From Narcine bancroftii (Eukaryota), in contig NC_091474.1 in assembly GCF_036971445.1 (NCBI RefSeq), forward strand, positions 90,582,001 to 90,646,000: DNA of 64,000 bases, given 5' to 3'. The notes below the pieces were generated by a model. It worked only from the letters and a program-made list of their open reading frames with translations. It searched no databases and was not told where the DNA came from. Of the stretch, positions 25,096-60,948 are shown in pieces; positions within the stretch are counted from its first letter, which is position 1, and every line of letters starts with the position of its first letter. Both the position numbers and the translations under genes were made by a program.

Positions 25096-25193
25096 CCAGA
25101 GCAGCGAGATTTAGGACAGACGGCTTTCATTTCAGACTGGAGTGAAGGGAATTGCTTCAGTCGGTGCCGCCTGCAACTGACCTGTGGGAAGGC

Positions 25194-28193
25194 ATGGCTG
25201 CAAGTGTGTTCATTTGTCTGGCGCTCTTGTTATTCCAGCGGATGCCCACAACAGAGACGTTTCAGTCCACGCTGATGTTGGACATGGCTCAAATCCTGCT
25301 GGAGAACTACTGTTTCCCAGAAAACCTCGTGGGGATGGAGGAGGCCCTCGGGAAAGTCAATCAGAGCGGCGACATTCTGCGCGTGACCGATCCCCAGACT
25401 CTCGCTGCAATGTTGACCACAGGAGTCCAGGGGGCTTTGAACGACCCCCGGTTACTGGTCACGTACGAGCCCGGGACGGCTCCCACTGAAGCGATGGACC
25501 TCCCTCCCCCGAGCTCCGAGACGCTCATGGCATTGATCCGAAGTTCTATCCAATTCGAAATTTTGGAAAATAACGTGGGTTACTTGAGGATTGACCACAT
25601 TTTTGCCGAGGACGTCGTGAACTTGATTGGCCCCATCCTAGTGGACACGGTTTGGAACCACATGGTGAGGACCGACGCGCTGATCCTGGACCTCCGCCAC
25701 TGCAGTGGTGGGGAGGTCTCGGGCGTCCCTTTCGTTATATCGTACTTCTGCAATGCCAACCCTGCCATCCACATCGACTCCATCTACCACCGCCCGTCCA
25801 ATGCCACAAGGGATGTATGGACCCTGCCCGTTCTGCTGGGTGAAAGGTACGAGGAGCACAAAGACGTGCTGGTGCTAATTAGCAGGAAGACCCGTGGGGT
25901 GGCCGAAGGGGTGGCGTACATCCTCAAGCACCTGGACCGCAGCCTCTTGGTGGGAGAGCGGACAGCGGGAGGCTCGCTGGACATCCAAAAGTTCCGCATT
26001 GGCCCCTCAGACTTCTTCGTCACCGTTCCCCTCTCGAGGTCGATCAGCCCCTTCACCGGCCAGAGTTGGGAAGTCAACGGAGTGTTCCCGTGTGTCGCGG
26101 TCAAGGCGGGGCGCGCCCTTGAGAGAGCGACCTCCATCCTCGCCGTGAGGAACCAGGTGCCCCGCGTCATCCAGAAGGTCGCGGAGCTGCTCGGCCGCTA
26201 CACCTCCTTCGCGGACCAGGTTCGGACTTTGACCCGACGGGTCGCTCAGATTGCGCGCTCGGCTCTGACTTCCGAGCAAGACCTGGCAGCAAAACTCAAC
26301 GACGAGCTCCAAGCCATCTTTGAAGATCCCCGACTGGTGATCAGCGTGACCTCGGGGGTCCCGGACACGGGAGAACCGAGTCCAGCCGAGGACCTCCCAG
26401 ATGATGCCGATTCCCTGCGGCAGATCGTGGACACCGTGTTTCGGGTGGAGATTTTGCCAGGCAATACTGGGTACTTAAGGTTCGATATGTTCCCCACTGA
26501 GTTGGCGCTGGCCAAACTGAGCCCCTACATCGTGGAGAGAGTGTGGAGGCCGATCAAGGACACTGACAATCTAATTCTGGATCTCAGATACAACGTCGGT
26601 GGCACCTCGGCCGCCGTGCCAATGCTGCAGTCATATTTCCACGACCCATCCCCGCCCGTCCGCTTGTACTCCATATTCAATCGGTTGGAAAACTCCACCA
26701 AAGAGTTCTTCACTCTTCCTGATTTGGATGGGAACTCTTATGGGTCAAAGAAGGGCGCCTATGTGCTCACTAGCCATCACACGGCCACGGCGGCCGAGGA
26801 GCTGGCCTACTTGATGCAGTCGCTGAGTCGGGCCACGGTGATTGGGGAGATCACCTCTGGCACCCTTCTACACACTCAATCTTTTCACATAGAGAATACC
26901 AAGTTCATCATAACGATCCCCTTCATTGATTTTATAGATAATAATGGAGAGTGTTGGTTGGGCGGTGGCGTAGTGCCCGATGCCATTGTATTGGCCGAAG
27001 AGGCACTGAATAAGACGAAGGATATCATAATGTTCCACGCTAAAGTGTTTCAACTGGTGGAGGAGACTGGGGAGCTCCTGGCCGTCCATTATGCCATCCC
27101 AGGGGTGGCGGCCAAGGTCGGCTCCCTGCTCGTTTCCAGGTGGCGGAATGGCTTGTACCGCTCAGTGGTGGACTATGAGTCACTGGCGGCTCAGCTGACC
27201 ACTGATCTGAAGGAGACCTCTGGCGACCACCGATTCCACGTTTTCTCCAGCGAGAGCTCGCCCGAGGTCCTGGACGACCAGGATGGGAGGATCCCTTCCC
27301 GCGAGGAGCTCGACCACATCATCCAAGCCCTCTTCAAGACCGAAGTGTTAGCAGACAACATTGGGTACCTTCGATTTGATATGATGGCCGACGCAGAAAC
27401 CATCAACGTCATTGTTCCACAATTACTAGACCAAGTGTGGAACAAATTGGTCAATTCAAGCGTTCTCATTATTGACATGAGATACAACGTCGGCGCGTAT
27501 TCGACCGCTGTCCCAATGTTGTGCTCTTACTTCTTCGACGCCGAACCTACCCGTCATCTCTACTCTGTTTTTAACCGCTCCTCCTCGTCCACTTTGGAAA
27601 TATGGACGTTGCCGGAGGTGCTTGGCCAAAGATACGCCTCCACTAAGGATGTCTACATCCTAACCAGCCATATTACAGGCTCCGCCGCAGAGGCGTTCAC
27701 CAGGGCTATGAAGGACCTGAACAGGGCGACGGTGATTGGCGAACCAACCACGGGAGGTGCCTTGTCTGTAGCCACCTACCGGATAGAAAATAGCAACCTC
27801 TATGTGTCGATTCCAAATCAGGTCGCCCTGAGTGCCGTCACCGGGAAGATTTGGAGCGTATCAGGTGTTGAACCGCATGTTACGGTCCAGGCCACTGAAG
27901 CCATGAGCGTTGCACTTGGCATCATAGAACTTCGGAGCAAGGTGCCCGGGGTTGTGCGAACGGCTGGGAAGTTGGTGGCTGATAATTATGCGTTTGCTGA
28001 AACCGGTGCCAAGGTAGCGGGGCAGCTCGCCGAGTTAGTTCAAGGCAGGATGTACAATGCTATTAATTCCGAGTTGGAGCTGGCTCAGAGGTTATCAGAG
28101 GACTTGCAGAAACTCTCCGGTGACCAGCATCTCAATGTAGCGCATATCCCGGAAAATCTGAAGGACCGCATCCCCGGTGTGGTTCCCATGCCG
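25194..28193 (+). CDS. RBP3: Interphotoreceptor retinoid-binding protein (IRBP), exon 1: signal peptide, modules 1-3 and start of module 4
   Basis: ATG 25194 in good Kozak context (ggcATGg); hydrophobic signal; LLENYCFPENLVGM; three repeats of GYLRxD/LILDLRxxxGG/GExTxGG; ends DRIPGVVPMP|gtaggt; 3000 bp. Confidence 0.97.
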
Positions 28194-28291
28194 GTAGGTT
28201 AACAGAAACCTTCTATCCCAGATTTTTTTAAAAAAAACAAGGCGTTTCCAGGGCATTGTATCTATTAACTCCTCTTGCTTCCCGCCCTTAG

Positions 28292-38931: not shown

Positions 38932-40082
38932 TCAGTTGTGAGATGTCATGTGTCGCGATAGATGATGGCGCTCTCGAAAAAATTCGTTACAGATCGGGCA
39001 GGTCAACTTTTCCTCCCTCCGTCGCTTGTTCAGGTGGCCAGTCGCGTACTCTTTCTTGTGATGGGACCTCATGTGAAACACCAGGTCTGAAGTCATTCGA
39101 AAAGACGCGTTGCATTTCGCGCACCAGTTCTGAGCTGAAACCCCGAGGGAAGTATATGATGGTGGAAGCAGAGTCAGGGTCGACGTTGACTGGAGCTGAA
39201 CTGGTTTGGGCCACATGTCAGCGCTGTACAAAAGGGGACCGTTGGTTGTAACACTTGCGTGTAAAATGTGAGAATTGCCGAGATCCGTGCTGAGAGATTT
39301 GGAGCCGAGGAGATTAGAGGGGCCCAGGAGGTGGCTTGCAGCGATAGAATCGGGCAGATCCCCGGAGCTTTCAGCTGCGGCGTGGAGTGCATGCGGCAGA
39401 AGCAGTGGGGGGCCTTCCCCGTTCCGCCTGCCCGGCTGACAGAACGCACTCCTCCGCTCCTCCATGCGTGCAGAAGGCAACACCGAGGAGAAGGCGCTGC
39501 GAGTGGAGCTGAGAACCACCTCTGTCCCTGCGCCCACCTTCCTGATCAGGTCAGAGGTACCGTCTTTAGCATTGCCCTCTGACTTATCTCCCTTGGCCTT
39601 CTCACGCGGTCGGCGAACCTCAGTAAATGCGCTTGTTTTATGTTCCGACGAATCCTTCTTCAATAAATACTTACCAGAGTTAAGTTTCCAGACGGAAACT
39701 GCGAGCGCCGGGAAGACACTTGAGTCATCTTTAGACAATGCGCCCAAGTTATTTGTTTTCTCCAAGAGGACCGCTTTCCTACTTCTGTTCTCCCCTGCGC
39801 CGTCTTGTTTTCGCTTGTTGGACGGCCTCCCCTCCTCCTGCCCCGCCGGCTTCTTCCTGGAATGCTCCAAATCGTGGGCGATTCTGTGAAAGTTGGTAAC
39901 TCTGCCCTTCTCTTTCCCCTCGGTGTCCTTGGGCGGGTCTTTATAAAGGACATCGTGACCAAAACCAAGGGCTCGGAAATCTCGCCCGAGATCATCCTTT
40001 CTCTTCCCGCATAAGAATCGAACGTGGGCCAAATATGGATTCTCATTCTTCAGCTCTTGTCCACAGTCTGCGCATCTGAAGG
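38932..40082 (-). CDS. ZNF488: ZNF488 (PRDM8 paralog), last coding exon with three zinc fingers
   Basis: Acceptor ttaccgtAG|CC (phase 1); CADCGQ..YLAHVRFLC; KSAFTEV/SAFS/SAFCQP-type motifs; C-terminal AQNWCAKCNASFRMTSDLVFHMRSHH..KRRREEKLTCPICNEFFRERHHLSRHMTSHN characteristic of PRDM8/ZNF488; TGA at 38934-38932. Tail-to-tail position next to RBP3 indicates ZNF488. Confidence 0.92.
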
Positions 40083-40546
40083 CTACGGTAAATAATAACA
40101 CATCATTAACATCTCTCTCTCTCTCTGAAATACATCACTGCAATAATATCGACCTAAATTCTATTTTTTAAGACTACAAGATCAGGGAAAGCCACTTTGT
40201 GCTCACTTAGAACACCGTAAAAATCCCAGCGGCCAAATTTCGCAAAGCAAGATCCCACACAGCCCTGAGGAAAGGGGTAAGTACTGGTACGTGGTTAATC
40301 ATGCCTGTTGAATTCAGATGTTCAGCACGGTAACTGGCCCTTTCGGCTCACGAGCCCAGTTGCACCCAATCAACCCACAACCCTGCACGTTTTGGAGGAA
40401 ACCGGTGCACCCGAGAAACACGGGAAGAATATATACAAACTCCTCGCTGACAGGGCGGGAGGTCCCGGGACGCTGGCACTGTCGTTGGGCTAACCGCTCA
40501 GCTAACCTTGCCGCTCTGAATGAACATTTTCAGGAAGAAGACGCTC

Positions 40547-41974
40547 TTTAAATAAAAATCCCATCACTTTGTTTTAAATGGGGAGCTCAGATTTAAAAGC
40601 CTCAATTCGCAGGGCTGTCTAAGCAGTGCGCTAAACCCTTCACCAAGTTTCTCGAGGTGTGACACGACCTTTCAGGTGAAATGATCAATTCATTCAGTGG
40701 TCTTGGATCCCGCCCAATAAAATAAGAGGTCGCTTTCCCCACACAGCTCTTCACCAGTTCTACTGTCAAAAGCACGCAGTTCAATCAAAACTGGCTGCTC
40801 TCACAATATCTGTTTAGTTGGTACATTTAAGACCCACGCATTTATTACACTGGATGGTTTTTTAAAAAAAATATAACCGTGGACACCAGTTCAAATAAGA
40901 AATGTGCAAAAAAACACACACATAAAGAAATTCAAGCACGTTTCAAGGGCTAAACGACTTATGGATTTCGTTCTAACCCTTTGCCTGCCAACGCGCATTA
41001 ATAATAGCGCGGTGGCACGTTTCAAACAGGGCTTGAATCGTCTTGCAGTGACACAGAGGTCGGGAGAAAGAGAGCAATTAGAAAACCAAGGCCTCAGGAT
41101 AATCAGATTTTCCATGTTTAAGAGTGTGAACCTATCGTTCTAATTTATAACCAAAAAGTCGCATGAGATAAACCGATACGAAAGATGAAAATAAAAACAC
41201 AATCCTGGCCAAGCAGCATCCCTTATATAGCAAAGATAAAGATACCTAGAGAGCGCTTCGGGCTTCTGCCCTTCATTTATCACCTCTTGAAATATTGTGA
41301 CTCGGTTGACGCCAGTTGTTGATGGTGATCTCTTCTAAACTTCCTCACCGTGCCCTTCAACCCAAATGTCAATCCATCGGACACCGTGAAGCATGACCCT
41401 TCTCACATGGCTTTCACTGGCTCATCAATGATTTTTGTTCACCATGCAGTGAAATCTGTGCTGCAATTTGCCAGATCGCCTTTTTCCATCTGACATTAAT
41501 TCAAAATGACGGGCTGTGTCTATAATTTTTTACTCTTATTGTGTAATTCTAAAGACTTTTGTCTACATATATATATAATCAAAAAGCAAAATTTATTTAA
41601 AAATATCCCATTAGGTCTACGACCGGACAACAATTAATATGTTCACAGTTATATTTAAAAAATCCATCCAGTGTAATAAATGCGTGGGTCTTAAATGTAC
41701 CAACTGAACAGATATTGTGAGAGCAGCCAGTTTTGATTGAACTGCGTGCTTTTGACAGTAGAACTGGCGAAGAGCTGTGTGGGGAAAGCGGCCTCTTATT
41801 TTATTGGGCGGGATCCAAGACCACTGAGTGAATTGATCATTTCACCTGAAAGGTCGTGTCACACCTCGAGAAACTTGGTGAAGGGTTTAGCGCACTGCTT
41901 AGACAACCCCGCGAATTGGGGCTTTTAAATCTGAGCTCCCCATTTAAAACAAAGTGATGGGATTTTTATTTAAA
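40547..41974. repeat. Long inverted repeat: arms 40547-40885 and 41640-41974, spacer ~750 bp
   Basis: Arms are near-perfect reverse complements; the ORF track shows the same pseudo-peptide on opposite strands (40602-40784 and 41737-41928). Confidence 0.95.
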
Positions 41975-42133
41975 TCCTATTTATCTTTTTCATTTTGAGT
42001 TCCTACTTTATGGCAAATTCATTTAAACAAGCGGCCAGTATTCGCTTTTAACAGAACTCAAGACCACATTCCAGCCGGTGGCGGTGAAGCGCGCAACCCT
42101 TCTGGAGTTTTGGGAGGCGCCAAGGTTACTCAC

Positions 42134-42365
42134 TGTTCGAGGCCCTCCGAGTTTTGATGTCGGTGAAGCCGAGGAGTGTGGACAGCTCCTCGTCATACCA
42201 CACGAAGAGTTCCTCGTCCTTCCTAATCCTCCGCGTGGAGCGGTAGTATAATTGCCCGCTCTTCAAGTGCGCTTCCAGGTTCTGCTCCTTCGAGTTGTTG
42301 GCCGCTTGCACCAGCCGCAACCAGGACAAGCCATCCGTGGAGCTACTCACTGCAGTTGTATCCAC
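42134..42365 (-). CDS. ZNF488: ZNF488 second coding exon, PR/SET domain C-terminal half
   Basis: cccgcccAG|GTG GAT (VDT..GLSWLRLVQAA..EQNLEAH..GQLYYRSTRRIRKDEELFVWY) AAC A|gtgagt; 232 bp. Confidence 0.92.
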
Positions 42366-42503
42366 CTGGGCGGGAGACAACGTTGCATCAAACTCTTGAA
42401 TAACTCATGCACATGTTTTGACCCAGATTTCATGAAGGTGTGAATATCCTTCCAATTGTTTCTGGCACTGTTCTGGTCTCCAATCCAATCTTCAAGGAAA
42501 ACT

Positions 42504-42701
42504 AAAAACACCATCTTGGAGAAACTCAGTTGGTCAAACAGTGTCCTTTATGTTGCAAAGTTAAAGAAACGTAACCAACGTTTCGGGCCGTTGATTATGT
42601 ATCTTTATCTCTGCTCTATAAAGGACACTGTTTGACCAGCTGGGTTGATCCAGCGTTGTGTTCTTACTTCAACCACGGTGTCTGCAGACTTTCGTGTTTT
42701 A
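42504..42701. mobile_element. Head-to-head Penelope-like tail pair forming a hairpin, with 14-bp flanking direct repeat
   Basis: TGGTCAAACAGTGTCCTTTAT (from 42531) versus ATAAAGGACACTGTTTGACCA (from 42618); flanks cttcaaggaaaact (42490-42503) and cttcaagggaaact (42702-42715). Confidence 0.7.
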
Positions 42702-42897
42702 CTTCAAGGGAAACTTACGGCTTCAAACATACTTTCTAAGTTTCGAGTTTATCGACATGGTAAATATTTTTTTTAAAAAACCGTATGTTTTGGAGAAACT
42801 TTTAAATCGTCTCCTTTAATGTTTGACGCTTCATAGGCAATTAGCGCCCAACATGAAACTTTGAAACGGGTGTGGGCTTAGTTTAAAGGGCTCTTAC

Positions 42898-43113
42898 CCG
42901 GAAGACGTAGGGCACACTTCTTCGATCTGAAGATTTCAAGGCAATGAAAGCGATTGTGTCGTAAAAGGTGTTCTGCAGGATGCAGGGACCGAAGACTGCA
43001 TCTTCAGGGATCTCGCGGGTAATATGCACGCTTGTTAATATGTCCGTGAAGTGGTGATGCAGGAATTTATTGTCACCTGTCCATAGTCCCTTAGAAAAAG
43101 GGGTAAATTCCAT
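42898..43113 (-). CDS. ZNF488: ZNF488 first coding exon, PR/SET domain N-terminal half
   Basis: MEFTPFSKGLWTGD..TDILTSV..IPEDAVFGPC..YDTIAFIALKSSDRRSVPYVFR|gtaaga aligns to the PRDM8 N-terminus. An acceptor cgcAG at 43122-43121 implies an upstream non-coding exon. Joined CDS is 1599 bp = 532 aa. Confidence 0.92.
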
Positions 43114-46100
43114 AATTCACCTGCGACATACAAAATAAAAGAGGATAATTCCTTGAATTTCCTGGTGCTTGTGAGATTATACTCGTTTTTGAGCTATTTG
43201 TATGGTGGAATTTAGGCAATATCAATTCACCTTGTCATTAGAACGATTCAGCCCCATATCCTTAAGTTTAATTTTGCCGCAGGCGATTTTTTTAAACCAC
43301 AGGCCCGTACACAACTCATAGCCTGTAAAACCGTCAGAATGGTGCACGTTTCATTCTTGACCCAGAAGCAACACGAATTCAGGGCTCAAGCCCGAAACCC
43401 CGGTGATGCATTTTTACCGTTGCAACATAAAAGGGCAGTGTGGGACCTGCAGAGCTTCCCCGGCGTTTAGTGTTTTTTTACTTCAAGTTAGGACTTCAGG
43501 TTAAATCCGAGTTCCCCACTCTCTTGGAAACGCGAAGCCCTGTTGCTTGTTGCGTTGGCGCGTTTGCTATTCCGCCCTGATCTAAATGGATCTGCTCCTC
43601 GCCCTCCATCAATCACCTCGTCCCAACGTTCATCAGAAGTTAATCTGGTACAAATCCACTTTTTAAAATGGGTTCAAGTTGTGGGCTGCAGAAGAATAAG
43701 CCCTGACACCGAAAATGGAGTCTCGTACAAATGATCTCTTGCTTTGAACATCGAAATGTAAAATTTTAAATAGAGCTAAATCCTGATGCCAACGTTTATT
43801 GTATCCGTTCAGTTATTGGCGTTAAGATAATAAAATGAGTTAATTTCGGATATTGGAATAAGTCACGAGACTATGATTACCTCGACATGATAAATATTAA
43901 ATTCAATTGAAAATTATTCCGCCGCGGTGCAAGCATCTTGCAAACCCGTAAACTTCAGCGTTGGGTTGCAATTGTTGAGCGTACCTTGTACTTCCGACAA
44001 TACTAAGATAGGCAACTCGCCGCAGTGGACGCATAATAAAGTTATCAATCATTTTCCCTTCTTGTTACTGTAATCGTAGTCTATATGATTTTACCTAATC
44101 TACCTTGGAATTGATGCCATTATGGACTTCAGGCGAAGCGATGTTGATCATTGGTGACAATTCTGAGCCACTCTTTTATTAGATGGAGCGTTTGAGAAAT
44201 CTTTTTTTTAATTGGGGCAGACCTGTATTGTATGGAGCCAAGGCGTAAATTAATGCGGAAACGAATGAACCGAGAGTTCGTGTTAGACGACTACCTCCTC
44301 CATGGCATTCATCAAGGCTAGGGGCAGAGATGAGTAAAGATATCAAATTAAACAATGACAGTAGGCAGGCAATTCTGTTCACCAGTGTTGCCTGGTCCCT
44401 TGGTCCTCGGTTCGGTTAGAAGCTAACGGACTGTGGCATAACGTTCTTTCCACTCTCGTCAATATCAAGCAGATCTATTCAACTCGATCCGCCCCTCGGC
44501 TCTCTCGGTTCGGTGTGGGGGAAAAAACTTCTCGGCTCTCACTGAGTCAAGTGACACTTGGAAGCATGATACCGTATTTTACTCTTCATTCAATCCTCTG
44601 CTCTCCCCCGAGCTTCACAATACCAAGTGACACGCGTGCAAAATCAATTTGACGCGAGGATACCAACATCCACATAATTATATAAATATACATGTTTTTT
44701 TTCGTGTCCTTCGGAGAATACTTCAAACTGTTGGAAGCAAACGAAGCCTAAACATTTTGCCTTGAGTAACTGCTGTCCTCGACGCCGATTGCAGAGATGT
44801 AGAACTTCATTGCGAAGTTGCTACGCTGTTAGATTGTGGGGTTGCTTTCAACGTTCAAGCCGTGTCGTGGAGGACGGCATGGTGTAGGGCGAATTCACGG
44901 TGATCTGATTGAAACTGGCGCATCGACTGGTCTAAAGGCTCACAGAAGTATAACGATGGGAATGAATGTATTTCTCTCTCCCCCCCCCCCTCTCTCTCTA
45001 TGTAAACCTTCACTCTCTCTGTCTGCCCCCTCTCTCCATTCCCCCTCCCCTCCCCTTCCATTGTGCTTGAGACGAAAGTGAGTGGATTGTTCATTTGATG
45101 CATATCGGCTCACTGAGACTGCTCTCCATTGTCTGTCCATCTGTCTGCCTGTTAGTTCCGGCCTTTCTTTTCCACCCTCACCCATCACTGTGCAAAACTG
45201 CCACTTTGCGCGTATTCAGCGACAGCCATTAGTTGCAGGTCGAAATGTTTTCAGGAATTAAAAAAAAAATAAATATTAAAAAAATACATTCGTAACAGTT
45301 GCCCATTTCAATTTTATAGTCAAGATCAGTGCAGCGCCTAATCCTGCCTGAATAATCGCGATTTAACTCTACACTGAATTATTAAACCGATCTGATTAAA
45401 CAAGCCAGCGTCTAAAAGCTTGCTGATAGAAGCATCGTACACGTGTTAGTTTGCTGTCATTAAAACTAAATTCGCTTGTTCTTAAATTAAAATGTGACTG
45501 TGCATCACCCTAAATCCGCAACATGCCCTCCGATAAATATATCCGCAGACAAGAAGGCATCTACAGACGGTCACAAGCCAGGTTCTCATTTACCAATGCC
45601 AGCCGATTATCCTTTGCGATCGATATCCCTTTCCGGAGGCTTCTTGAGGTGCAGCGATTTCGATTGATCCCTGAAAGTGAGAGTGACGCCGGTGAGCGCT
45701 GCGTGGAAATGACAGTTTGCCCCGCTGGAAAAGACACTTTCCTTTGCAACATCATTTGTTCAGTGAACCGTGCCAAGCAATCCCTGGGCTCTTCCGCTTG
45801 CATTCACCCTCAATTGGCGCTTTCATTGGTGGTTTATATGGAGCAACCCTATTAATGAAATCATGGAACCCAACAATTGCCGTGCACTATAACAATATTC
45901 AATCGCTTTCTGCGCCCTATTTTCTACAATACATGGAATCTGTGCAGTTTATAACGGCTAAGTGTTGCAATATCTATTTGAGTCGCTTAAATCACCTGAT
46001 CAGATGTTATATTTATGGCAAATCCTTACCTTGGCTTGAGCGAAATAAATTTATGACTAAACAATGCTAGCGATCGCTTGTCGGGAATAATGACTAAATA

Positions 46101-46339
46101 ATATTTGAAGAAAAATAAACTCTTTGCTGTATAAAGTGCACTAAAACGTTACATTTTAAATCAGTCTGGGATCATCTTATTCCTGTTTTTGGTCCACACC
46201 TTCCGAATTTCTTAGTTTTTAGTCGAATATTGATATTATTTCTATTTTCTACTCGGCATTTTATTTAATTTTTAAACTATTAATCAATGAAAGAGACGCG
46301 CCACTGACCTTTAACAGTTGTTGAATGGGAAAGTTAGCA

Positions 46340-46830
46340 AGACTTTCAGCGGCTGTACTTTATGAGGTGTTTGCGTGCCACCAAAGACTCTCATAAACGA
46401 CTACAGGTGTGCCGTGGGGAGCCTTCTGGCTGGCGGCATCCCTGCCTGGTACAGCTCAGGACAAGCATAAATTCCAGAGTTAACTCGGCCTGCGACATCA
46501 CAGGCACCAGACTTCCCTCCATCGAGGACATCGACATGAGGCGGCGTGTTCAATGAAAGCAGCCTCTCTCCTCAAAGACCCCCACCACCCAGGCCGTGCC
46601 CTCTTCACTCTGCTCCCATCGGGGAAAAGGTCGAGGAGTCTCAAGACAAGCTCTCAATGGCACAAGGACAGCGTCTTCCCCGCTGCCATCAGATTCCTGA
46701 ATGATCAACGAACCACAGACAGACACTGCCTCACTTTTCGCCTGCTATTATTATTTATAATATGAATGTTTACACTGTGATACCGCAAAAACGCCGTCTT
46801 ATTGACAATAAATTCTGATTCTGAACCTAA
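46340..46830 (+). mobile_element. Rex1/Babar-like LINE 3-prime end
   Basis: SACDITGTRLPSIEDI..KAASLLKDPHHPGRALFTLLPSGKRSRSLKT..KDSVFPAAIRFLN and aataaattctgattctga tail. Confidence 0.8.
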
Positions 46831-47973
46831 TTCTGAGATCACCATACTCGTCATTAAATTTAAAGAGAGCGACCATGAAGTTTATTCCGATCCCTGGTTC
46901 TTTTATAGGAAATATGATAATATCGGACAAAACTGAGTCCAGTCTTATTAAATGTATTTTATTACAGGAGATCGTTTTGGAGTCAGCTGGGTACACTCAA
47001 CATCGTCTGCTGCTCTAATAATTAAACGCAGCTATTTGCTACGACATTTTAAAAATAAACCCTAATTCACTCAATCTTCGTCGAAATGTTTGATATTTAG
47101 AAGTTCTTTCGATTCAGGACATTTCTTTTTTTAAAAAAAACCATTCGTGGTACACCAACTATACCCCGGCAAGGTCATTACATTGGTATTTTTGGGGGAA
47201 AACATTACCTTCAACAAATTCAGCTATATATAGTCGCAAGTAATTGAGACCATTCTCCCTCAAACGGGCCAAAGCCAAGGAAAGTTTGTGACCAACTTTA
47301 TGAGCAGTGTCATTTAGCACAAAAATCCCCCGGGAAGATGCCGCATCAATTATAGGACACTATCCCAAACAGCCTTTCATATAATAAGACGTGACGTAAA
47401 TTCCCTTCTTGGTCCTTTCGGAATGATTTGCAAAAATGCTATTGTGTATTTTTCAACTCACCTAGAAATAAATTGACATCAACTGTTTAGCGAATCGAGT
47501 AACTTCGAACATTCGTTGCATTTTTTTCTTTAAAATGATCTTTAATCTTTAGCCACTATGAATATATACATTCTTAGATCTTTCGCTGAATTGGTTATTT
47601 AACATTGCATGATAAACTAAACTGGTTGTATTAAAATAGTAAATAGCTACTCTGTGACAGACAGCTCCTCGTCCATTGTCCAACTCATTCCATATAAAAG
47701 TCATCTGCGATATGCTGGAGAAAAAAAAAAGCCTCTATAATGGCGAAATATCTTGTCACAATCAAATACGCCAACAGTTCAAAGAGCAACATCACTTTTG
47801 AAAGATGTCGTTCCAAATAAAGGAGTGTCAACGCCTGACAGAAAATTCCTATGAACATCTTGACATCTGAAATAATCAGCACTTTTGATTAACGTTTATG
47901 GGGTGGCTGCACTCCTCCGCTGCAAGAACGCCTGCTTATATGACCAGAAACATCTCGTGTTGCGAGCTGCTTT

Positions 47974-48447
47974 TACTCGAGATGGCAGAGGCCCACATGC
48001 TGCTGAAGATCCAAATGCGCTGGGTAGGTCACTTCTCCAGAATGGAGGACCATCGCCTTCCCAAGATCGTGTTATATGGCGAGCTCTCCACTGGCCACCG
48101 AGACAGAGGTGCACCAAAGAAGAGGTACAAGGACTGCTTAAAGAAATCTCTTGGTGCCTGCCACATTGACCACCGCCAGTGAGCTGATATCGCCTCCAAC
48201 TGTGCATCTTGGCGCCTCACAGTTCGGCGGGCAGCAACCTCCTTTGAAGAAGACCGCAGAGCCCACCTCACTGACAAAAGACAAAGGAGGAAAAACCCAA
48301 CACCCAAACCCCAACCAACCAATTTTCCGCTGCAACTGTATCTGCCTGTCCCGCATTGGACTTGTCAGCCACAAAAGAGCCTGCAGCTGACGTGGACAGT
48401 ACCCCTCCATTAATCTTCATCCGCGAAGGCAAGCCAAAGAAGAAGAA
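47974..48447 (+). mobile_element. RTE-clade LINE 3-prime fragment
   Basis: LLKIQMRWVGHFSRMEDHRLPKIVLYGELSTGHRDRGAPKKRYKDCLKKSL; (gaa)n tail; premature stop at 48180-48182. Confidence 0.88.
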
Positions 48448-49155
48448 AACATCCAGTTTGGCAACAGCAAAGTAAACCAGATCATCAGTAGGACGGAGTT
48501 TCAACGCACTGATCCTACTATTGAGGGTCCTAATTAAGATGAATGAGCAGAAGGCTTCTTAACAAAATATTACATTTTTTAAGTTCAGTGACTCGATTCA
48601 CGATTTGATTTTCAAATTTGTGTCGGCCAGTGTGATTTTATATACACATTCCACAGCCACTTTCCCTTCAGTAAGATCGCTGCCACTATTTTGTGACCAC
48701 CGTGAATTGTTTGCGTCTGTATTTTTTTTAAATAAAGAATTGCCATAAAACACACCAAGTGCTGAAAATATTCCCTGCCTCTTGTTCATTTCTGTTCCCA
48801 TGAAAGTTCTGATTAAGTGGACTGGGCAGTGTGCATTGAAAACTTTCCAACTACTCCGATGCCCCCTTAATGGCAACTAATTGACAAATTTACTCATGAT
48901 TGAATGTGGGGAAAATGTGATTTGGATAACCACATTTTGTAAAAAGAAGCGAATGTATCAACAAATTGCATGTTGGGAATCAAAGTAAGACAATAAATGG
49001 ACATGTCATTATTCAATGCACAGTTGCTGTGATGTTTCAAATTTGGTGTCAACATTACAAGTGATTCAAAAGTAACACTTCATTTACAATTCTGCTGTTA
49101 TAAACGATTTATATCATTCAGTCATCACGAGGTATCATATAAAATGGCTGCTCTC

Positions 49156-52100
49156 AGGGGTGAAGACTGGTCCCAGGAGACCACTGGTCCCCTGTGCAGG
49201 GAGGAAAGGATGACCCCTGGAGTGCACAGGACCCCAGTGCAGGGAGAGGGACAAAGGTTGGTCCCAGGAGTGCACTGGTCACCAGTGCCAGGAGGGAAAG
49301 GTTAACCCCTGGAGTGCACTGGCCTGCAGTGCAGCAAGAGGGGTGAAGGCTGGTCCCAGGAGGGCACTAGCCCACAGTGCAGGGAGAGGGGCAAAGGCTG
49401 GTCCCAGGAAGGCACTGGCTCGGGTTCTAGGGAGAGGGGAGAAAGCTGGTCCCAGGAGTGCACTGGTCCGCAGTGCAGGGAGAGGGGCAAAGGATGGTTC
49501 CAGGAAGGGACTGGCCCACAGTCTAGGGAGAGGAGTGAAAGCTAGTCGCAGGAGTGCACTGGTCACCAGTGCAGGGAGGGAAAGGTTAACCCCTGGAGTG
49601 CACTGGCCTGCAGTGCAGTGAGAGGGGTGAAGGCTGGTCCCAGGAGGGCACTAGCCCACAGTGCAGGGAGAGGGGCAAAGGCTGGTCCCAGGAAGGCACT
49701 GGCTCGGGTTCTAGAGAGAGGGGAGAAAGCTGGTCCCAGGAGTGCACTGGTCACCATTGCAGGGAGGGAAAGGCTGACCCCTGGAGTACACTGGCCTGCA
49801 GTTCAGGGATAGGGATGAAGACTGGTCCCAGGAGGGCACTGGCCCACAGTGCAGGGAGAATTGCGAAAACTGGTCCCAGGAGTGCACTGGTCCCCATTGC
49901 AGGGAGGGAAAAGCTGACCCTGGAGTGCACGGGAACCCAGTGCAGTGAGAGCGGTGAAGGCTGGTCCCAAGTGGGCACTGGCCCACAGTGCAGGAAGAGG
50001 GGTGAAGACTGGTCCCAGGAGGGCACTGGCCTGCAGTGCAGGGAAAGGGGCAAAGACTGGTTCTAGGAGTGCACTGGTCCTCAGTGCAGAGAGGGACAGG
50101 CTGACCCCTGGAGTGCAGGGAGAGGGGTGAAGTGTGGTCCAGGGTGTGCACTGGCCCACAGAGTAGGGAGATGAGTGAAGGCTGGTCCCAGGTGGGCACT
50201 GGCATTGTTCAGGTAAAGGGTTAAGGCTGTTTGCAGGAGGCCACTGGACCACAGTGCACGGAGAGGGGCGAACACTGGTCCCAGGAATGCACTAATCCCC
50301 AATGCAAGGAGGGAAAGGCTGAGCCCTGGAGTGCACAGGGCCTCAGTGCAGGTAGAGGGGTGAAGACTGATTACAGGATTGCACTGCAGGATGAGAGATG
50401 GTCCCAGGTGGGCACTGGCATGCAATGCAGGTAAAGGGGCGAAGGTTGGTCGCAGGAGACCACTGGACAACAGTGCAGGGAGAGGTGCGAAGACCAGTCC
50501 CAGGAGTGCACTAGTCCCCAGTGCAGGGAGGGAAAAACTGACCTCTGGAGTGAACAGGTCACCAGCGCAGGGAGGGAAAGGCTGACCCCTGGAGTGCAAA
50601 CGACCCCAGTGCAGGGAGAGGGATGGTGTGGTCTGAGGTGTGCACTGGCCCACAGTGCAGGGAGAGGGGTGAAGGCTGGTCCCAGGAGTGGACTGGTCCC
50701 CAGTGCAGTGAGCGAAAGGCTGACCCCTGGAGTGCACTGGTCCACAGTGCAGGGAGAGGGACGGAGGCTGGTCCCTGGAGACCACTGGACTGCATTGCAG
50801 GAAGAGGGGCAAAGACTGGTCCCAGGAGTTCACTGATCACCAGTGCAGCGAGGGAAAGGCTGACACCTGAAGTGCACTGGCCCATAGTGCAGGGAGAGGG
50901 TCGAAGGCTGGTCCCAGGAGACAATTGGCCCACAGTGCAGGGAGAATGGCAAAGGCTGGTCCCAGGAGACAACTGGCCCACAGTGCATGGAGAGGGAAGA
51001 AGACTGGTCCCAGGAGGGCACTGGCCCACAGTGCAGGGAGAATGGCAAAGGCTGGTCCCAGGAGACAACTGGCCCACAGTGCATGGAGAGGGAAGAAGAC
51101 TGGTCCCAGGAGGGCACTGGCCCACAGTGCAGGGAGAGGCGAATACTGGTCCCAGGAGTGCACTAATCCCCAGTGCAGGCAGGGAAAAGCTGACCCCTGG
51201 AGTGCACAGGACCCCAGTGTAGGTAGAGGGGTAAAGGCTGGTCCCAGGAGGGCACTGGACCCCAGTACAGGGAGGGAAAGGCTGACCCCTGGAGTGCACA
51301 GGACCCCAGTGCATAGAGAGGGGTGGTGTGGTCCGAGGTATGCAATGGCCCACGGTGCAGGGTGGGTGTGAAGGCTGGTCCCAGGAGTGCACTGGTCCCT
51401 AGTGCAGGGAGGGAAAGGCTGACCCCTGGAGGGCACAGGACCTCAATGCTGGATGAGAGGTAAAGGCTGATACCAGGATTGCACTGGCCTGCAGGGCAGG
51501 GAGAGGGGTGAGAGCTGCTCCCAGAAATGCACTGGCCCACAATGAAGGTAAAGGGGTGAGGACTTGACCCAGGAGGCCACTGACCCACAGTGCAGGGAGA
51601 GGGGCGAAGACTGGTCCCAGGAGTGAACTGGTCCCAGTGCAGGGAGGGAAAGGCTGACCCCTGGAGGGCACTGGCCCGCAGTGCAGGGAGAATTGTGAAG
51701 ACTGGTCCCAGGATTGCACTAGTCCCCAGTGCAGGGAGGGAAATGCAGACCCCTGGAGGGCACTGGCCCGCAGTGCATGGAGAATTGCGAAGACTGGTCC
51801 CAGGATTGCACTAGTCCCCAGTGCAGGGAGGGAAATGCAGACCCCTGGAGTGCACAGGGCCCCAGTACAGGGAGAGGGGCGAAGACTGGTCCCAGCAGTG
51901 AACAGGTCCAAGTGCAGGGAGGGAAAGGCTGACCCCTGGAGTGCACTGGCCCAGAGCAGGGAGAGTAGCGAAGGCTGGTCCCAGGAGGGCACTGGTCACC
52001 AGTGCAGGGAGGGAAAGGATGACAACTGGAGTGCACTGCCCCACAGTGCAGGTAGAGGGGTGAAGGCTGATCCCAGGAGACCACTGGCCGGCAGTGCACG

Positions 52101-52420
52101 GAGAGGGGCGAAGACTGGTCCCAGGAGACCACTGGCCCGCAGTGCAGGAAGAGCGGTGAAGGCTGACTCCTGGAGTGCACTCGGCCACAGTGCAGGGAGA
52201 GGGGCGAAGGCTGACCCCTGGAGTGCACTGGGCCACAGTGCAGGGAGAGGGGCGAAGGCTGACCCCTGGAGTGCACTGGCCCACAGTGCAGGGAGAGGGG
52301 CGAAGGCTGGTTCCAGGAGGGCACTGGCCCGCAGTCTCGGGAGAGAGGCGAAGGCTGGCCCCAGGAGTGCACTGGTCCCCAGTGCAGGGAGCCGGGTGAA
52401 AGCTGATCCAAGGCTGCAGT
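49156..52420. repeat. Tandem minisatellite of 48- and 44-bp units (roughly 70 units) with higher-order structure
   Basis: Consensus close to gaaggctggtcccaggagTGCACTGgcccaCAGTGCAgggagaggggc; 48-bp period at 52158/52206/52254, 44-bp at 49267/49311, 284-bp higher-order repeat at 49277/49561, 96-bp at 50941/51037. Confidence 0.97.
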
Positions 52421-53125
52421 GAGCAGTCGATGTTTCAACAGTTGGCTGAGCTCACGTCAGTCTGACCGCAGGGGAATCTCAGGCTGTCGCGCAATTTGGG
52501 GAAAAGACAATCCCATTCGCAGCAATTTCGTGCAAAGCAGCAATAGAGAAAGCGAGCCTCTGGGCTGCAGCAGGACGCCTGAGTGGGCTGCATTTTATTG
52601 TGGGGAGGGAGATCGTTCATGACCGGGACATGGCGACGTGTGGACGCGGCGTTTGCAGCTCGGCGCTGGCTGCCTTGCTGTTCCTCGCCGCCCGCTGCTC
52701 CTGTTCTCCCGGCCGGCAGGACAACGCCGAGGGCGACCCGTCCTGTCACGGAGCGTTCGACCTCTACTTTGTCCTGGATAAGTAAGTGAAAGCCCCCCCT
52801 TCCCCTCCAAATCCGTGTGCCGCGCTTTTCCGCCGCTTCCCCACATGCGAAGGGCCAACTTTATATTTGCTTTTGTGCTTCGTATTTGAACGGCCAAGGT
52901 GCGGGGAAGGTGGGTGGGGAGGAGGGAGAGAGGGGGGTGGTGCGAGTCTGCGACACAGTCCTTTAAACACCCCCCCCCACCCCATTCCCCGGTGTAAGGT
53001 CTCGTGGATACTGTGGCTCCCGGGGTTGGGGGCGTCGCGGCTCCCGCGGGGGCGTGTGGGGGGGGGGGAGCGCGGAGGTGAGGGAGCGGCTCGGTGTCGC
53101 GCGTCCGCTGGGCGAGGGGACGGTG
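52420..53125 (+). promoter_or_regulatory. CpG island / promoter region of the ANTXR-like gene
   Basis: GC-rich, CpG-dense segment spanning a signal-peptide-coding first exon. Confidence 0.65.
52630..52781 (+). CDS. ANTXRL: Anthrax toxin receptor family gene (ANTXR1-like sequence; ANTXRL position by synteny), first coding exon
   Basis: gacATGg; signal peptide, then PSCHGAFDLYFVLD-K|gtaagt matching the ANTXR vWA-domain start (C..xFDLYFxLDKSGS); 152 bp, phase 2. Family is secure; the paralog name comes from synteny only. No downstream exon was recognised in the window. Confidence 0.85.
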
Positions 53126-54030
53126 GGTGAGGTACGTGGGTGGTGGGTGAGATAGTTGGTGAGGTAGATGGGCAGTGGGTGAGGTCTATGGGTGGTGGGT
53201 GCTATAATTGGTGAGGTAGGAGGGTGGTGAGTGAGGTCTGTAGACAGTGGGTGAGGTAGGTGGGCGGTGGGTGAGGTCTATGGGTGGCGGGTGAGAGTTG
53301 GTGAGGTAGATGGGCAGTGGGTGAAGTCTATGGGTAGTGGATGCTATAGTTGGTGAGGTAGGAGGGCAGTGAGTGAGGTCTATGGACAGTGGGTGAGGTA
53401 GGTGGGCAGTGGGTGAGGTCTATGGGTGGTGGGTGAGATAGTTGGTGAGGTAGATAGGCAGTGGGTGAGGTCTATGGGTGGTGGGTGCTATAATTGGTGA
53501 GGTAGGAGGGTGGTGAGTGAGGTCGAAAGGCAGTGGGTGAGGTAGGTGGGTGGTGGGTGAGGTAGGTGGGCGGTCGGTGAGGTAGGTGGGCGGTGGGTGA
53601 GGTAGGTCGGCGGTGGGTGAGGTAGGTGGGCGGTGGGTGAGGTAGGTGGGCGGTGGGTGAGGTAGGTGGGCGGTGGGTGAGGTAGGTGGGCGGTGGGTGA
53701 GGTAGGTGGGCGGTGGGTGAGGTAGGTGGGCGGTGGGTGAGGTAGGTGGGCGGTGGGTGAGGTAGGTGGGCGGTGGGTGAGGTAGGTGGGCGGTGGGTGA
53801 GGTAGGTGGGCGGTGGGTGAGGTAAGTGGGCGGTGGGTGAGATACGTGGGTGGTGGGTCAGCCAGTTGGTGTGGTAGGAGGCCGGTGGATGGTCTATGGG
53901 TGGTGGGTGAGGTGTATGGGTGGTGGGTCAGCTAGTTGGTGAGGTGGAGGCTGGTGAGTGAGGTCTATGGACAGTGGGTGAGGTAGGTGGGTGGAAGGTG
54001 AGGTCTATGGTGGTGGAAGTGGGTGAAATA
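53125..54030. repeat. G-rich minisatellite, 20-bp unit GGTAGGTGGGCGGTGGGTGA
   Basis: Near-perfect 20-bp period across ~53540-53840, with diverged variants on both sides. Confidence 0.95.
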
Positions 54031-59828: not shown

Positions 59829-60948
59829 CTTTGGCTTGGCTTCGCGGACGAAGATTTATGGAGGGGGTAAAAGTCCACGTCAGCTGCAGGCTCGTTTGTG
59901 GCTGACCAGTCCAATGCGGGACAGGCAGACACGGTTGCAGCGGCTGCAGGGGAAAATTGGTTGGTTGGGGTTGGGTGTTGGGTTTTTCCTCCTTTGCCTT
60001 TTGTCAGTGAGGTGGGCTCTGCGGTCTTCTTCAAAGGAGGTTGCTGCCCGCCAAATTGTGAGGCGCCAAGATGCACGGTTTGAGGCGATATCAGCCCACT
60101 GGCGGTGGTCAATGTGGCAGGCACCAAGAGATTTCTTTAGGCAGTCCTTGTACCTTTTCTTTGGTGCACCTCTGTCACGGTGGCCAGTGGAGAGCTCGCC
60201 ATATAACACGATCTTGGGAAGCCGATGGTCCTCCATTCTGGAGACGTGACCCACCCAGCGCAGCTGGATCTTCAGCAGCGTGGACTCGATGCTGTCGACC
60301 TCTGCCATCTCGAGTACTTCGACGTTAGGGATGAAAGCGCTCCAATGGATGTTGAGGATGGAACGGAGACAACGCTGGTGGAAGCGTTCTAGGAGCCGTA
60401 GGTGATGCCGGTAGAGGACCCATGATTCGGAGCCGAACAGGAGTGTGGGTATGACAACGGCTCTGTATATGCTTATCTTTGTGAGGTTTTTCAGTTGGTT
60501 GTTTTTCCAGACTCTTTTGTGTAGTCTTCCAAAGGCGCTATTTGCCTTTGCGAGTCTGTTGTCTATCTCATTGTCGATCCTTGCATCTGATGAAATGGTG
60601 CAGCCGAGATAGGTAAACTGGTTGACCGTTTTGAGTTTTGTGTGCCCGATGGAGATGTGGGGGGGCTGGTAGTCATGGTGGGGAGCTGGCTGATGGAGGA
60701 CCTCAGTTTTCTTCAGGCAGTTTCCGCAAAGCAGGACGTCAAGCGCTGAAGAGCTGGCTCTGAATGGGCAACTTAAGCGGCATCATCTGCAAAGAGTAGT
60801 TCACGGACAAGTTTCTCTTGTGTCTTGGTGTGAGCTTGCAGGCGCCTCAGATTGAAGAGACTGCCATCCGTGCGGTACCAGATGTAAACAGCGTCTTCAT
60901 TGTTGGGGTCTTTCATGGCTTGGTTCAGCATCATGCTGAAGAAGATTG
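59829..60948 (-). mobile_element. 5-prime-truncated RTE-clade LINE, 1120 bp
   Basis: TSD ATACATAT at 59821-59828 and 60949-60956; minus strand YRTDGSLFNLRRL..VRELLFADDAA(stop) and C-terminal CSRCNRVCLSRIGLVSH finger. Confidence 0.92.

What the first reader, a model, noticed from the sequence alone, without database searches (positions are those of the whole stretch)
49156..52420. 3.3-kb array of ~70 hairpin-bearing 44/48-bp units ending 210 bp before the ANTXR-like start codon
Seen: most units contain the dyad TGCACTG-N5-CAGTGCA (for example TGCACTGG-TCA-CCAGTGCA) with a variable loop (gccca, gtcac, gtccc, gcctg) and better-conserved stems, separated by purine-rich linkers. Two unit classes (ggtcccagg and gacccctgg) combine into higher-order repeats of 284, 188 and 96 bp. 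The array is GC-rich but CpG-poor and stops at the CpG island. Inference: a promoter-proximal VNTR that could act as a multimeric binding platform, a cruciform or RNA stem-loop array, or a chromatin barrier between the divergent ZNF488 and ANTXR-like promoters. This is the most striking unexplained structure in the window.
Basis: partly seen in the sequence, partly recalled or inferred. Interest (0 to 1): 0.7.

Follow-up and report, generated by a model that had tools for sequence, protein, structure and literature searches.

The report
Promoter-edge minisatellite with unselected hairpins
A real 3.3-kb run of 70 short repeats, found at only this place in the genome searched, abuts the start of an expressed anthrax-toxin-receptor-like gene; its hairpin arms vary as much as the rest of the unit and its variable loop likely reflects ordinary decay of methylated CpG, so it is most likely an ordinary promoter minisatellite whose last copies are probably transcribed.

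Summary
The array is real: 70 units at 49156-52420, a single locus in a 3.33-Gb genome, ending 210 bp before the ATG of a spliced, expressed ANTXR-family gene. The hairpin reading fails. The exact dyad occurs 11 times; stems vary as much as linkers (0.115 vs 0.100; 3.4 vs 3.4 parsimony steps); two-sided changes are at chance level. Loop variability is mostly one CG/TG/CA site, matched by a second in the linker: likely methyl-CpG decay. The two classes are one 44-bp and one 48-bp unit; 284/188/96 are local duplications. Two facts are new: the array is a CpG-poor island (o/e 0.14) inside a CpG-retaining domain, and RNA contigs run 123-124 nt past its edge, so the transcript start probably lies in its last units (one study, not aligned there). 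Such arrays are common here: 32 in 1.26 Mb, 9 beside CpG-island-like windows; earlier scan notes report similar promoter arrays in this genome and in other cartilaginous fishes. Length polymorphism and function are untested. Verdict: new member of a known kind.

The parts
49156..52420 (+). Compound minisatellite, 70 units plus a partial one; mean pairwise unit identity 72%; CpG o/e 0.14
51388..51431 (+). Example of the 44-bp unit (X): 19-bp dyad core plus short linker; 19 such units; a short tail is followed by the second head class in 19 of 19 cases
50641..50688 (+). Example of the 48-bp unit (Y): dyad core plus long linker, with two CG/TG/CA sites (one in the loop, one in the linker)
   Evidence: no difference from the Y majority outside the two sites
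49261..49766 (+). Local duplication at lag 284 (222 bp, 9 differences); source of the 284 period
50926..51137 (+). Local duplication at lag 96 holding the longest exact repeat (116 bp)
51633..51895 (+). Local duplication at lag 92 (X+Y dimer)
50098..50130 (+). 33-bp unit that lacks the loop and one arm: 15 bp lost between two 6-bp direct repeats
   Evidence: sequence
50364..50394 (+). 31-bp unit with a deletion through the dyad
   Evidence: sequence
52160..52303 (+). Three near-identical terminal units (96-98%), CpG kept in the linker; the only long-tail to second-head junctions (3 of 50) lie at this end
52297..52420 (+). Last 2.5 units; probably part of the 5' leader (inferred: RNA contigs run 123, 124 and 38 letters past 52421; not aligned here)
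52421..52629 (+). Unique 5' leader covered by RNA contigs with 0 differences; upstream ATGs at 52430 and 52619
52630..52781 (+). First coding exon of an ANTXR-family gene, spliced at 52781 to exon 2 at G000:C15:90646908, just beyond the window
52401..53200 (.). CpG island
39001..48000 (.). CpG-retaining domain (o/e 0.75-0.99 per kb) over the ZNF488-like gene and its upstream region
38935..43113 (-). ZNF488-like C2H2 zinc-finger gene (three coding exons; ATG 43113; a splice acceptor just upstream suggests a further non-coding exon). Name by synteny; PRDM8 likeness recalled

Best explanation
This is a single-locus compound minisatellite of 44- and 48-bp units that likely grew in place at the upstream edge of the ANTXR-like CpG island by slippage and unequal exchange, whose hairpin is likely an unselected heirloom of the founding unit and whose variable loop likely records decay of methylated CpG. 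Shown: one locus, two unit types with a fixed junction rule, local block duplications, equal variation of stems and linkers, two CG/TG/CA sites changing about three times as often as other columns, and spliced RNA covering the leader up to the array edge. Inferred: (1) the unit arose from a duplicated 15-17-bp submotif whose ends are self-complementary, which yields the dyad without selection; (2) a 92-bp X+Y dimer was amplified, then Y units and blocks were duplicated; (3) the array was methylated in the germ line while its flanks kept their CpGs; (4) the transcript starts about 120 bp inside the 3' end, so the last units serve as core promoter and leader by position, while the upstream 3 kb are likely passengers that may modulate expression only incidentally.
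For: Single locus: three pattern searches gave 11, 11 and 14 matches, all inside the array, the last with 2 mismatches allowed; a DNA search gave only the array; no blastn hit elsewhere in 1.264 Mb. Mismatch to class majority: stem 92/798 (0.115), linker 151/1507 (0.100), non-CpG loop 28/203 (0.138), CpG-site columns 58/164 (0.354). Parsimony steps per column on leave-column-out trees, 39 distinct Y units: stem 3.36, linker 3.44, CpG columns 10.75 (p=0.0013); 15 distinct X units: stem 1.07, linker 1.12. The two sites in 41 Y units: CA 20, TG 7, CG 7, other 7; CG 14, TG 13, CA 8, other 6; the second lies outside the hairpin. Two-sided changes: 2 of 7 pairs, 3 of 378 cells, reached by 205 and 99 of 500 shuffles. 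A stem of at least 7 bp arises in 6.8% of 3000 shuffles of the Y majority unit, at least 8 bp in 3.5% for X. Two units lost the hairpin. 32 arrays of at least 200 bp in 1.264 Mb, 4 over 2 kb, 9 within 1 kb of a CpG-island-like window against 3.6 expected (p=0.007). RNA contigs of three runs cover 52421 onward with 0 differences and splice at 52781.
Against: The covariation score (0.066) is reached by only 22 of 500 shuffles, though a slid control scores 0.099 and the tool warns that relatedness inflates it. The dyad is the longest among the 32 arrays sampled (8 bp; the other 31 at most 6). 82% of stem cells still pair. Equal rates within one array cannot exclude selection on the whole unit or on array length. 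Methylation is read from sequence only. CpG is kept more often in the last 18 units (12 CG to 8 decayed against 9 to 40; p=0.001, 0.015 after dropping 8 recent duplicates, 0.05-0.10 with another cut; cut chosen after looking), which fits a promoter role for that end. The inferred start rests on unaligned overhangs from one study.
Confidence: 0.75

Rival explanations
1. The array is a maintained methylated island that separates the ZNF488-like CpG-retaining domain from the ANTXR-like promoter, letting the two divergent genes be regulated apart.
For: CpG o/e 0.10-0.13 at 49-52 kb between 0.75-0.99 at 39-48 kb and 0.91 at 53-54 kb; decay signature at two sites; human VNTR copy number can raise local methylation (10.1101/2020.12.16.423078, passages).
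Against: A methylated repeat inside an unmethylated domain needs no function; no sign of selection on any part of the unit; the unique kilobase just upstream is already intermediate (o/e 0.53).
Confidence: 0.1
2. The array is a selected multimeric transcription-factor platform, for example for MTF-1 (metal response element core) or GC-box factors.
For: The MRE core TGCRCNC (PMC4879176, passage) occurs 29 times in 3.3 kb against 35 in the other 60.7 kb; GC-box-like hexamers at 8 places, 4 in the last 320 bp; human expression VNTRs are 7.9-fold enriched within 2 kb of starts.
Against: Only 28 of 70 units keep the core; one of its fixed bases is the most variable non-CpG column (13 steps); a shuffled unit holds such a core in 5.5% of trials, and all copies descend from one event; only this motif was tested, no motif library was on hand.
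Confidence: 0.07
3. The units are a structure-selected array of DNA cruciforms or RNA stem-loops.
For: 82% of stem cells pair; covariation 22 of 500 shuffles; one terminal unit folds at z=-2.3; human MSY1 units are predicted hairpins thought to shape mutation (PMC2599865, passages).
Against: Stems vary like linkers; two-sided changes at chance level; the other 4 of 5 folds give z=-0.2 to -1.5; inferred leader z=-1.5; no Rfam family near its threshold; unit lengths vary from 31 to 48, unlike MSY1.
Confidence: 0.05
4. The array is a copy of a dispersed satellite or the subterminal repeat of a transposon, or an assembly artefact.
For: LINE-like fragments lie 0.7 kb upstream; organism B holds 0.17 of the words of the region for an unresolved reason.
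Against: All matches in G000 are in this array; the upstream flank is unique; units differ (3 identical pairs among 70); four DNA runs of one sample, possibly the assembly's own, hold 0.92-0.93 of the words, and a contig crosses the left junction with 0 differences and ends at 49240, where the first repeated 31-mer predicts a break.
Confidence: 0.03

Closest known systems
Human promoter and upstream minisatellite VNTRs (INS 14-mer, CSTB 12-mer, MAOA 30-mer, TRIB3 33-mer; 10.1101/2020.12.16.423078, passages read; PMC8096271, passages; PMC4857002, abstract and outline)
   Same: Single-locus, GC-rich, 10-60-bp units with variant repeats, next to a transcription start and CpG island.
   Different: Here units are old (72% mean identity), of two lengths with a fixed junction rule, and neither polymorphism nor an expression effect is shown.
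Human MSY1 minisatellite (PMC2599865, passages read)
   Same: Single-locus array of variant repeats, each predicted to form a hairpin.
   Different: MSY1 is 75% A+T with an invariant 25-bp length and block-wise variants; this array is 62% G+C, interspersed, tolerates length changes and loss of the hairpin, and abuts a promoter.
DNA methylation valleys at developmental regulator genes (PMC5806489; search listing and start of abstract only)
   Same: A large CpG-retaining domain over a zinc-finger regulator gene (39-48 kb).
   Different: Inferred from CpG content only; here the domain is interrupted by a CpG-poor repeat.

Membership tests
Single-locus minisatellite | Head-to-tail units of about 10-60 bp, array of 0.1-20 kb (definition recalled) | tested here: met
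   70 units of mostly 44/48 bp over 3.3 kb
Single-locus minisatellite | Confined to one locus | tested here: met
   11, 11 and 14 pattern matches, all in the array; patterns cannot see very diverged relatives
Single-locus minisatellite | Variant repeats and internal block duplications | tested here: met
VNTR | Copy number varies between alleles or individuals | not tested
Expression or methylation VNTR | Within 2 kb of a transcription start | tested here: met
   Spliced RNA contigs reach the array edge
Expression or methylation VNTR | Allele length associated with expression or methylation | not testable with these tools
   No population, expression or methylome data
Structure-selected hairpin or structured-RNA array | Stems conserved above linkers | tested here: not met
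   0.115 vs 0.100; 3.36 vs 3.44 steps
Structure-selected hairpin or structured-RNA array | Compensatory changes above chance | tested here: not met
   2 pairs, 3 cells; 205 and 99 of 500 shuffles; covariation score 22 of 500 but below a slid control
Satellite with higher-order repeats | One multi-unit period repeated across the array with higher identity than the monomers (definition recalled) | tested here: not met
   Array-wide identity at lags 92, 96, 188, 284 is 0.37-0.44, below lag 48 (0.56); high identity only locally
MTF-1 metal response element cluster | TGCRCNC core kept across copies | tested here: not met
   28 of 70 units; core from PMC4879176; binding itself untested
Coding repeat | One open frame through the array joined to the gene | tested here: not met
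   Longest stop-free frame inside is 279 aa of 1088 possible; 44-bp units shift frame

The most novel reading that the evidence does not exclude
The ANTXR-like core promoter is built from the last units of the repeat, and the 3 kb upstream are methylated, retired copies of the same module that now form a boundary against the ZNF488-like unmethylated domain; this would be one case of a lineage-wide process that turns promoter edges into kilobase arrays in this genome, with array length tuning expression.
Probability: 0.1. Interest if true: 0.6.

Novelty: new member of a known kind. Interest (0 to 1): 0.25.

Why it matters
It is a clean example of how methyl-CpG decay mimics a 'variable loop, conserved stem' pattern, a trap for repeat annotation. 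If the transcript start is inside the array and kilobase promoter arrays recur in this genome, as the sample here and earlier scan notes suggest, the genome would be a natural test of whether promoter repeats are passengers of recombination at CpG islands or tuned regulators.

Tried and rejected
Dispersed copies: none. Rfam: one match at E=0.96, 21 bits against a threshold of 50, treated as chance. G-quadruplex: no canonical motif, G4Hunter maximum 1.48. Coding: rejected. A seed of the unit in the flanks: only weak local alignments, scores 22 and 29. Look-alike stretches in other genomes of the scan: 0. No run is on record as RNA; X6-X9 are guessed to be RNA, though X6-X8 carry the splice. Runs X6 and X9 show almost no cover on unique sequence of 45100-49100, so the ZNF488-like start was not found; absence in contigs is no evidence. 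Organism B (X5) holds 0.17 of the words, but lays only short pieces under 90% on 52421-53120 and no long piece on 48550-49210; whether its share lies in the array is open. X9 has depth 78.9 in the bin 49102-49210 from a piece not listed; unexplained. The duplicate-pair rates (stem 0.114, linker 0.110, CpG 0.29) use overlapping segments, so its p-values are not used. Twelve of 70 units with indels were left out; re-phased counts use 16 of 19 X and 41 of 48 Y units. Ten literature searches listed no description of this array; subscription papers are not covered; no supplements were read.

Full report
Observation. TRF finds one array at 49156-52413 with periods 48, 96, 188 and 284. Segmentation gives 70 units and a terminal partial, mean pairwise identity 72%, 3 identical pairs. 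The ATG at 52630 is 210 bp after 52420. GC is 0.62 and CpG o/e 0.14.

Unit grammar. A short tail is followed by the second head class in 19 of 19 cases, a long tail in 3 of 50, all three at the 3' end. Re-phased at the stem, there are two units: X, 44 bp (19 copies), and Y, 48 bp (48 copies). The periods 284, 188, 96 and 92 are local duplications: identity reaches 0.88-1.0 over one period but only 0.37-0.44 array-wide. The sequence shows the end of the linker and the core to be two similar 15-17-bp submotifs, each ending in the self-complementary TGCA; a tandem pair of them gives the dyad. That origin is inference; it fits the 33-bp unit at 50098, which lost 15 bp between the two 6-bp direct repeats.

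Hairpin test. Stems and linkers vary alike by three measures: mismatch to class majority 0.115 against 0.100, parsimony steps 3.36 against 3.44 in Y and 1.07 against 1.12 in X, and duplicate pairs 0.114 against 0.110 (overlapping segments). Two-sided changes are 2 of 7 pairs and 3 of 378 cells, reached by 205 and 99 of 500 shuffles; the covariation score is reached by 22 of 500, but a slid control is higher. A founding unit of this composition has a 7-bp stem in 6.8% of shuffles. Against this reading, the stem is the longest among 32 arrays sampled and one of five folds reaches z=-2.3.

Why the loop varies. Two dinucleotide sites in Y read CA 20, TG 7, CG 7 and CG 14, TG 13, CA 8 of 41. TG and CA are each one step from CG, the products of methyl-cytosine deamination on either strand (established knowledge). 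These four columns change 10.75 times on the trees against about 3.4 for others (p=0.0013). One site is in the loop, the other in the linker, so the effect is not loop-specific. Without it the loop is not distinguishable from the stem (p=0.28). One other loop column remains variable (10 steps in Y).

Locus. All matches in the 3.33-Gb genome lie in the array, at 90.6 Mb of a 254.6-Mb contig, so it is neither dispersed nor subtelomeric. The upstream flank is unique. Gene order is TGF-beta family gene, RBP3, zinc-finger gene, ANTXR-family gene; human 10q11.22 holds ANTXRL, ZNF488, RBP3 and GDF2 (PMC8624726, one passage), so the gene is likely the ANTXRL orthologue. Earlier scan notes call the organism an electric ray; I did not check that.

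Transcription. Contigs of three runs cover 52421 onward with 0 differences and leave at 52781 for exon 2, which is single-copy and matches ANTXR1 at E=1.6e-6. They run 123, 124 and 38 letters past 52421. If colinear, two end at 52297-52298, at depths 40.8 and 5.7. Repeated 30-mers in this allele predict a break at 52271, not there, while the same logic predicts the DNA contig end at 49240 correctly. So the start probably lies inside the third-last unit. This is a hint: one study, other individuals, contigs, and overhangs that were not aligned; a reverse-transcriptase stop is an alternative.

CpG landscape. Per-kilobase o/e is 0.75-0.99 from 39 to 48 kb, 0.53 at 48-49 kb, 0.10-0.13 over the array body and 0.58-0.91 at 52-54 kb. 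CpG is kept more often in the terminal units (p=0.001-0.10 by cut and de-duplication). The array thus looks like a methylated island in an unmethylated domain; this is inferred from sequence alone.

Base rate. In 1.264 Mb of the same contig (664 kb around the locus, three 200-kb blocks elsewhere) there are 32 arrays of at least 200 bp, 4 over 2 kb, and 9 lie within 1 kb of one of 49 CpG-island-like windows against 3.6 expected (p=0.007; includes this array; island calls are liberal and array edges can create them). Earlier notes report 2.7-3-kb promoter arrays at two other genes of this genome and smaller ones in other cartilaginous fishes; these are unchecked leads. Human VNTRs are likewise enriched upstream of genes and in CpG islands (PMC8096271, passages), and most minisatellites are thought to be by-products of local meiotic recombination (PMC2599865, passages).

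Verdict. An ordinary single-locus promoter-edge minisatellite, new member of a known kind. The hairpin-device reading is not supported; polymorphism, methylation and function are untested. Papers seen: passages of PMC8624726, PMC12887540, PMC2599865, PMC4879176, PMC8096271 and 10.1101/2020.12.16.423078; abstract and outline of PMC4857002; listing only for PMC5806489. Interest 0.25.

Noticed in passing
window 40547-40867 and 41654-41974: A 321-bp inverted repeat, 97% complementary, arms 786 bp apart, inside an intron of the ZNF488-like gene; a recent inverted duplication, an inversion-prone site or an assembly feature.
   Followed up: partly
window 53123-54016: Second minisatellite (20-bp unit, about 32 copies, GC skew +0.75) in intron 1 of the ANTXR-like gene, so exon 1 and its CpG island are flanked by arrays on both sides; G4Hunter at least 1.2 over 47% of it.
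   Followed up: partly
window 25001-48000: A roughly 23-kb region with mostly retained CpG, covering RBP3 and the ZNF488-like gene; o/e 0.67-0.87 per 5 kb against about 0.35 in the surrounding 464 kb.
   Followed up: partly
window 25146-28199 (+): Long single-exon frame of RBP3/IRBP, 1018 aa stop to stop, 4 and 3 Peptidase_S41-type stretches.
   Followed up: no
window 42050-43113 (-): The ZNF488-like gene keeps N-terminal exons that look like a PR/SET-type domain of PRDM8 (likeness recalled, not searched).
   Followed up: no
window 52430 and 52619: Two out-of-frame upstream ATGs in the transcribed leader; the second overlaps the main ATG.
   Followed up: no
window 46330-46790, 47960-48460, 59886-60782: High-copy LINE-like fragments; family not identified, no Pfam match for the last.
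   Followed up: no
G000:C15:30017083-30181430: A cluster of 14 minisatellites in 200 kb, many over 70% G+C, one 3.1 kb.
   Followed up: no
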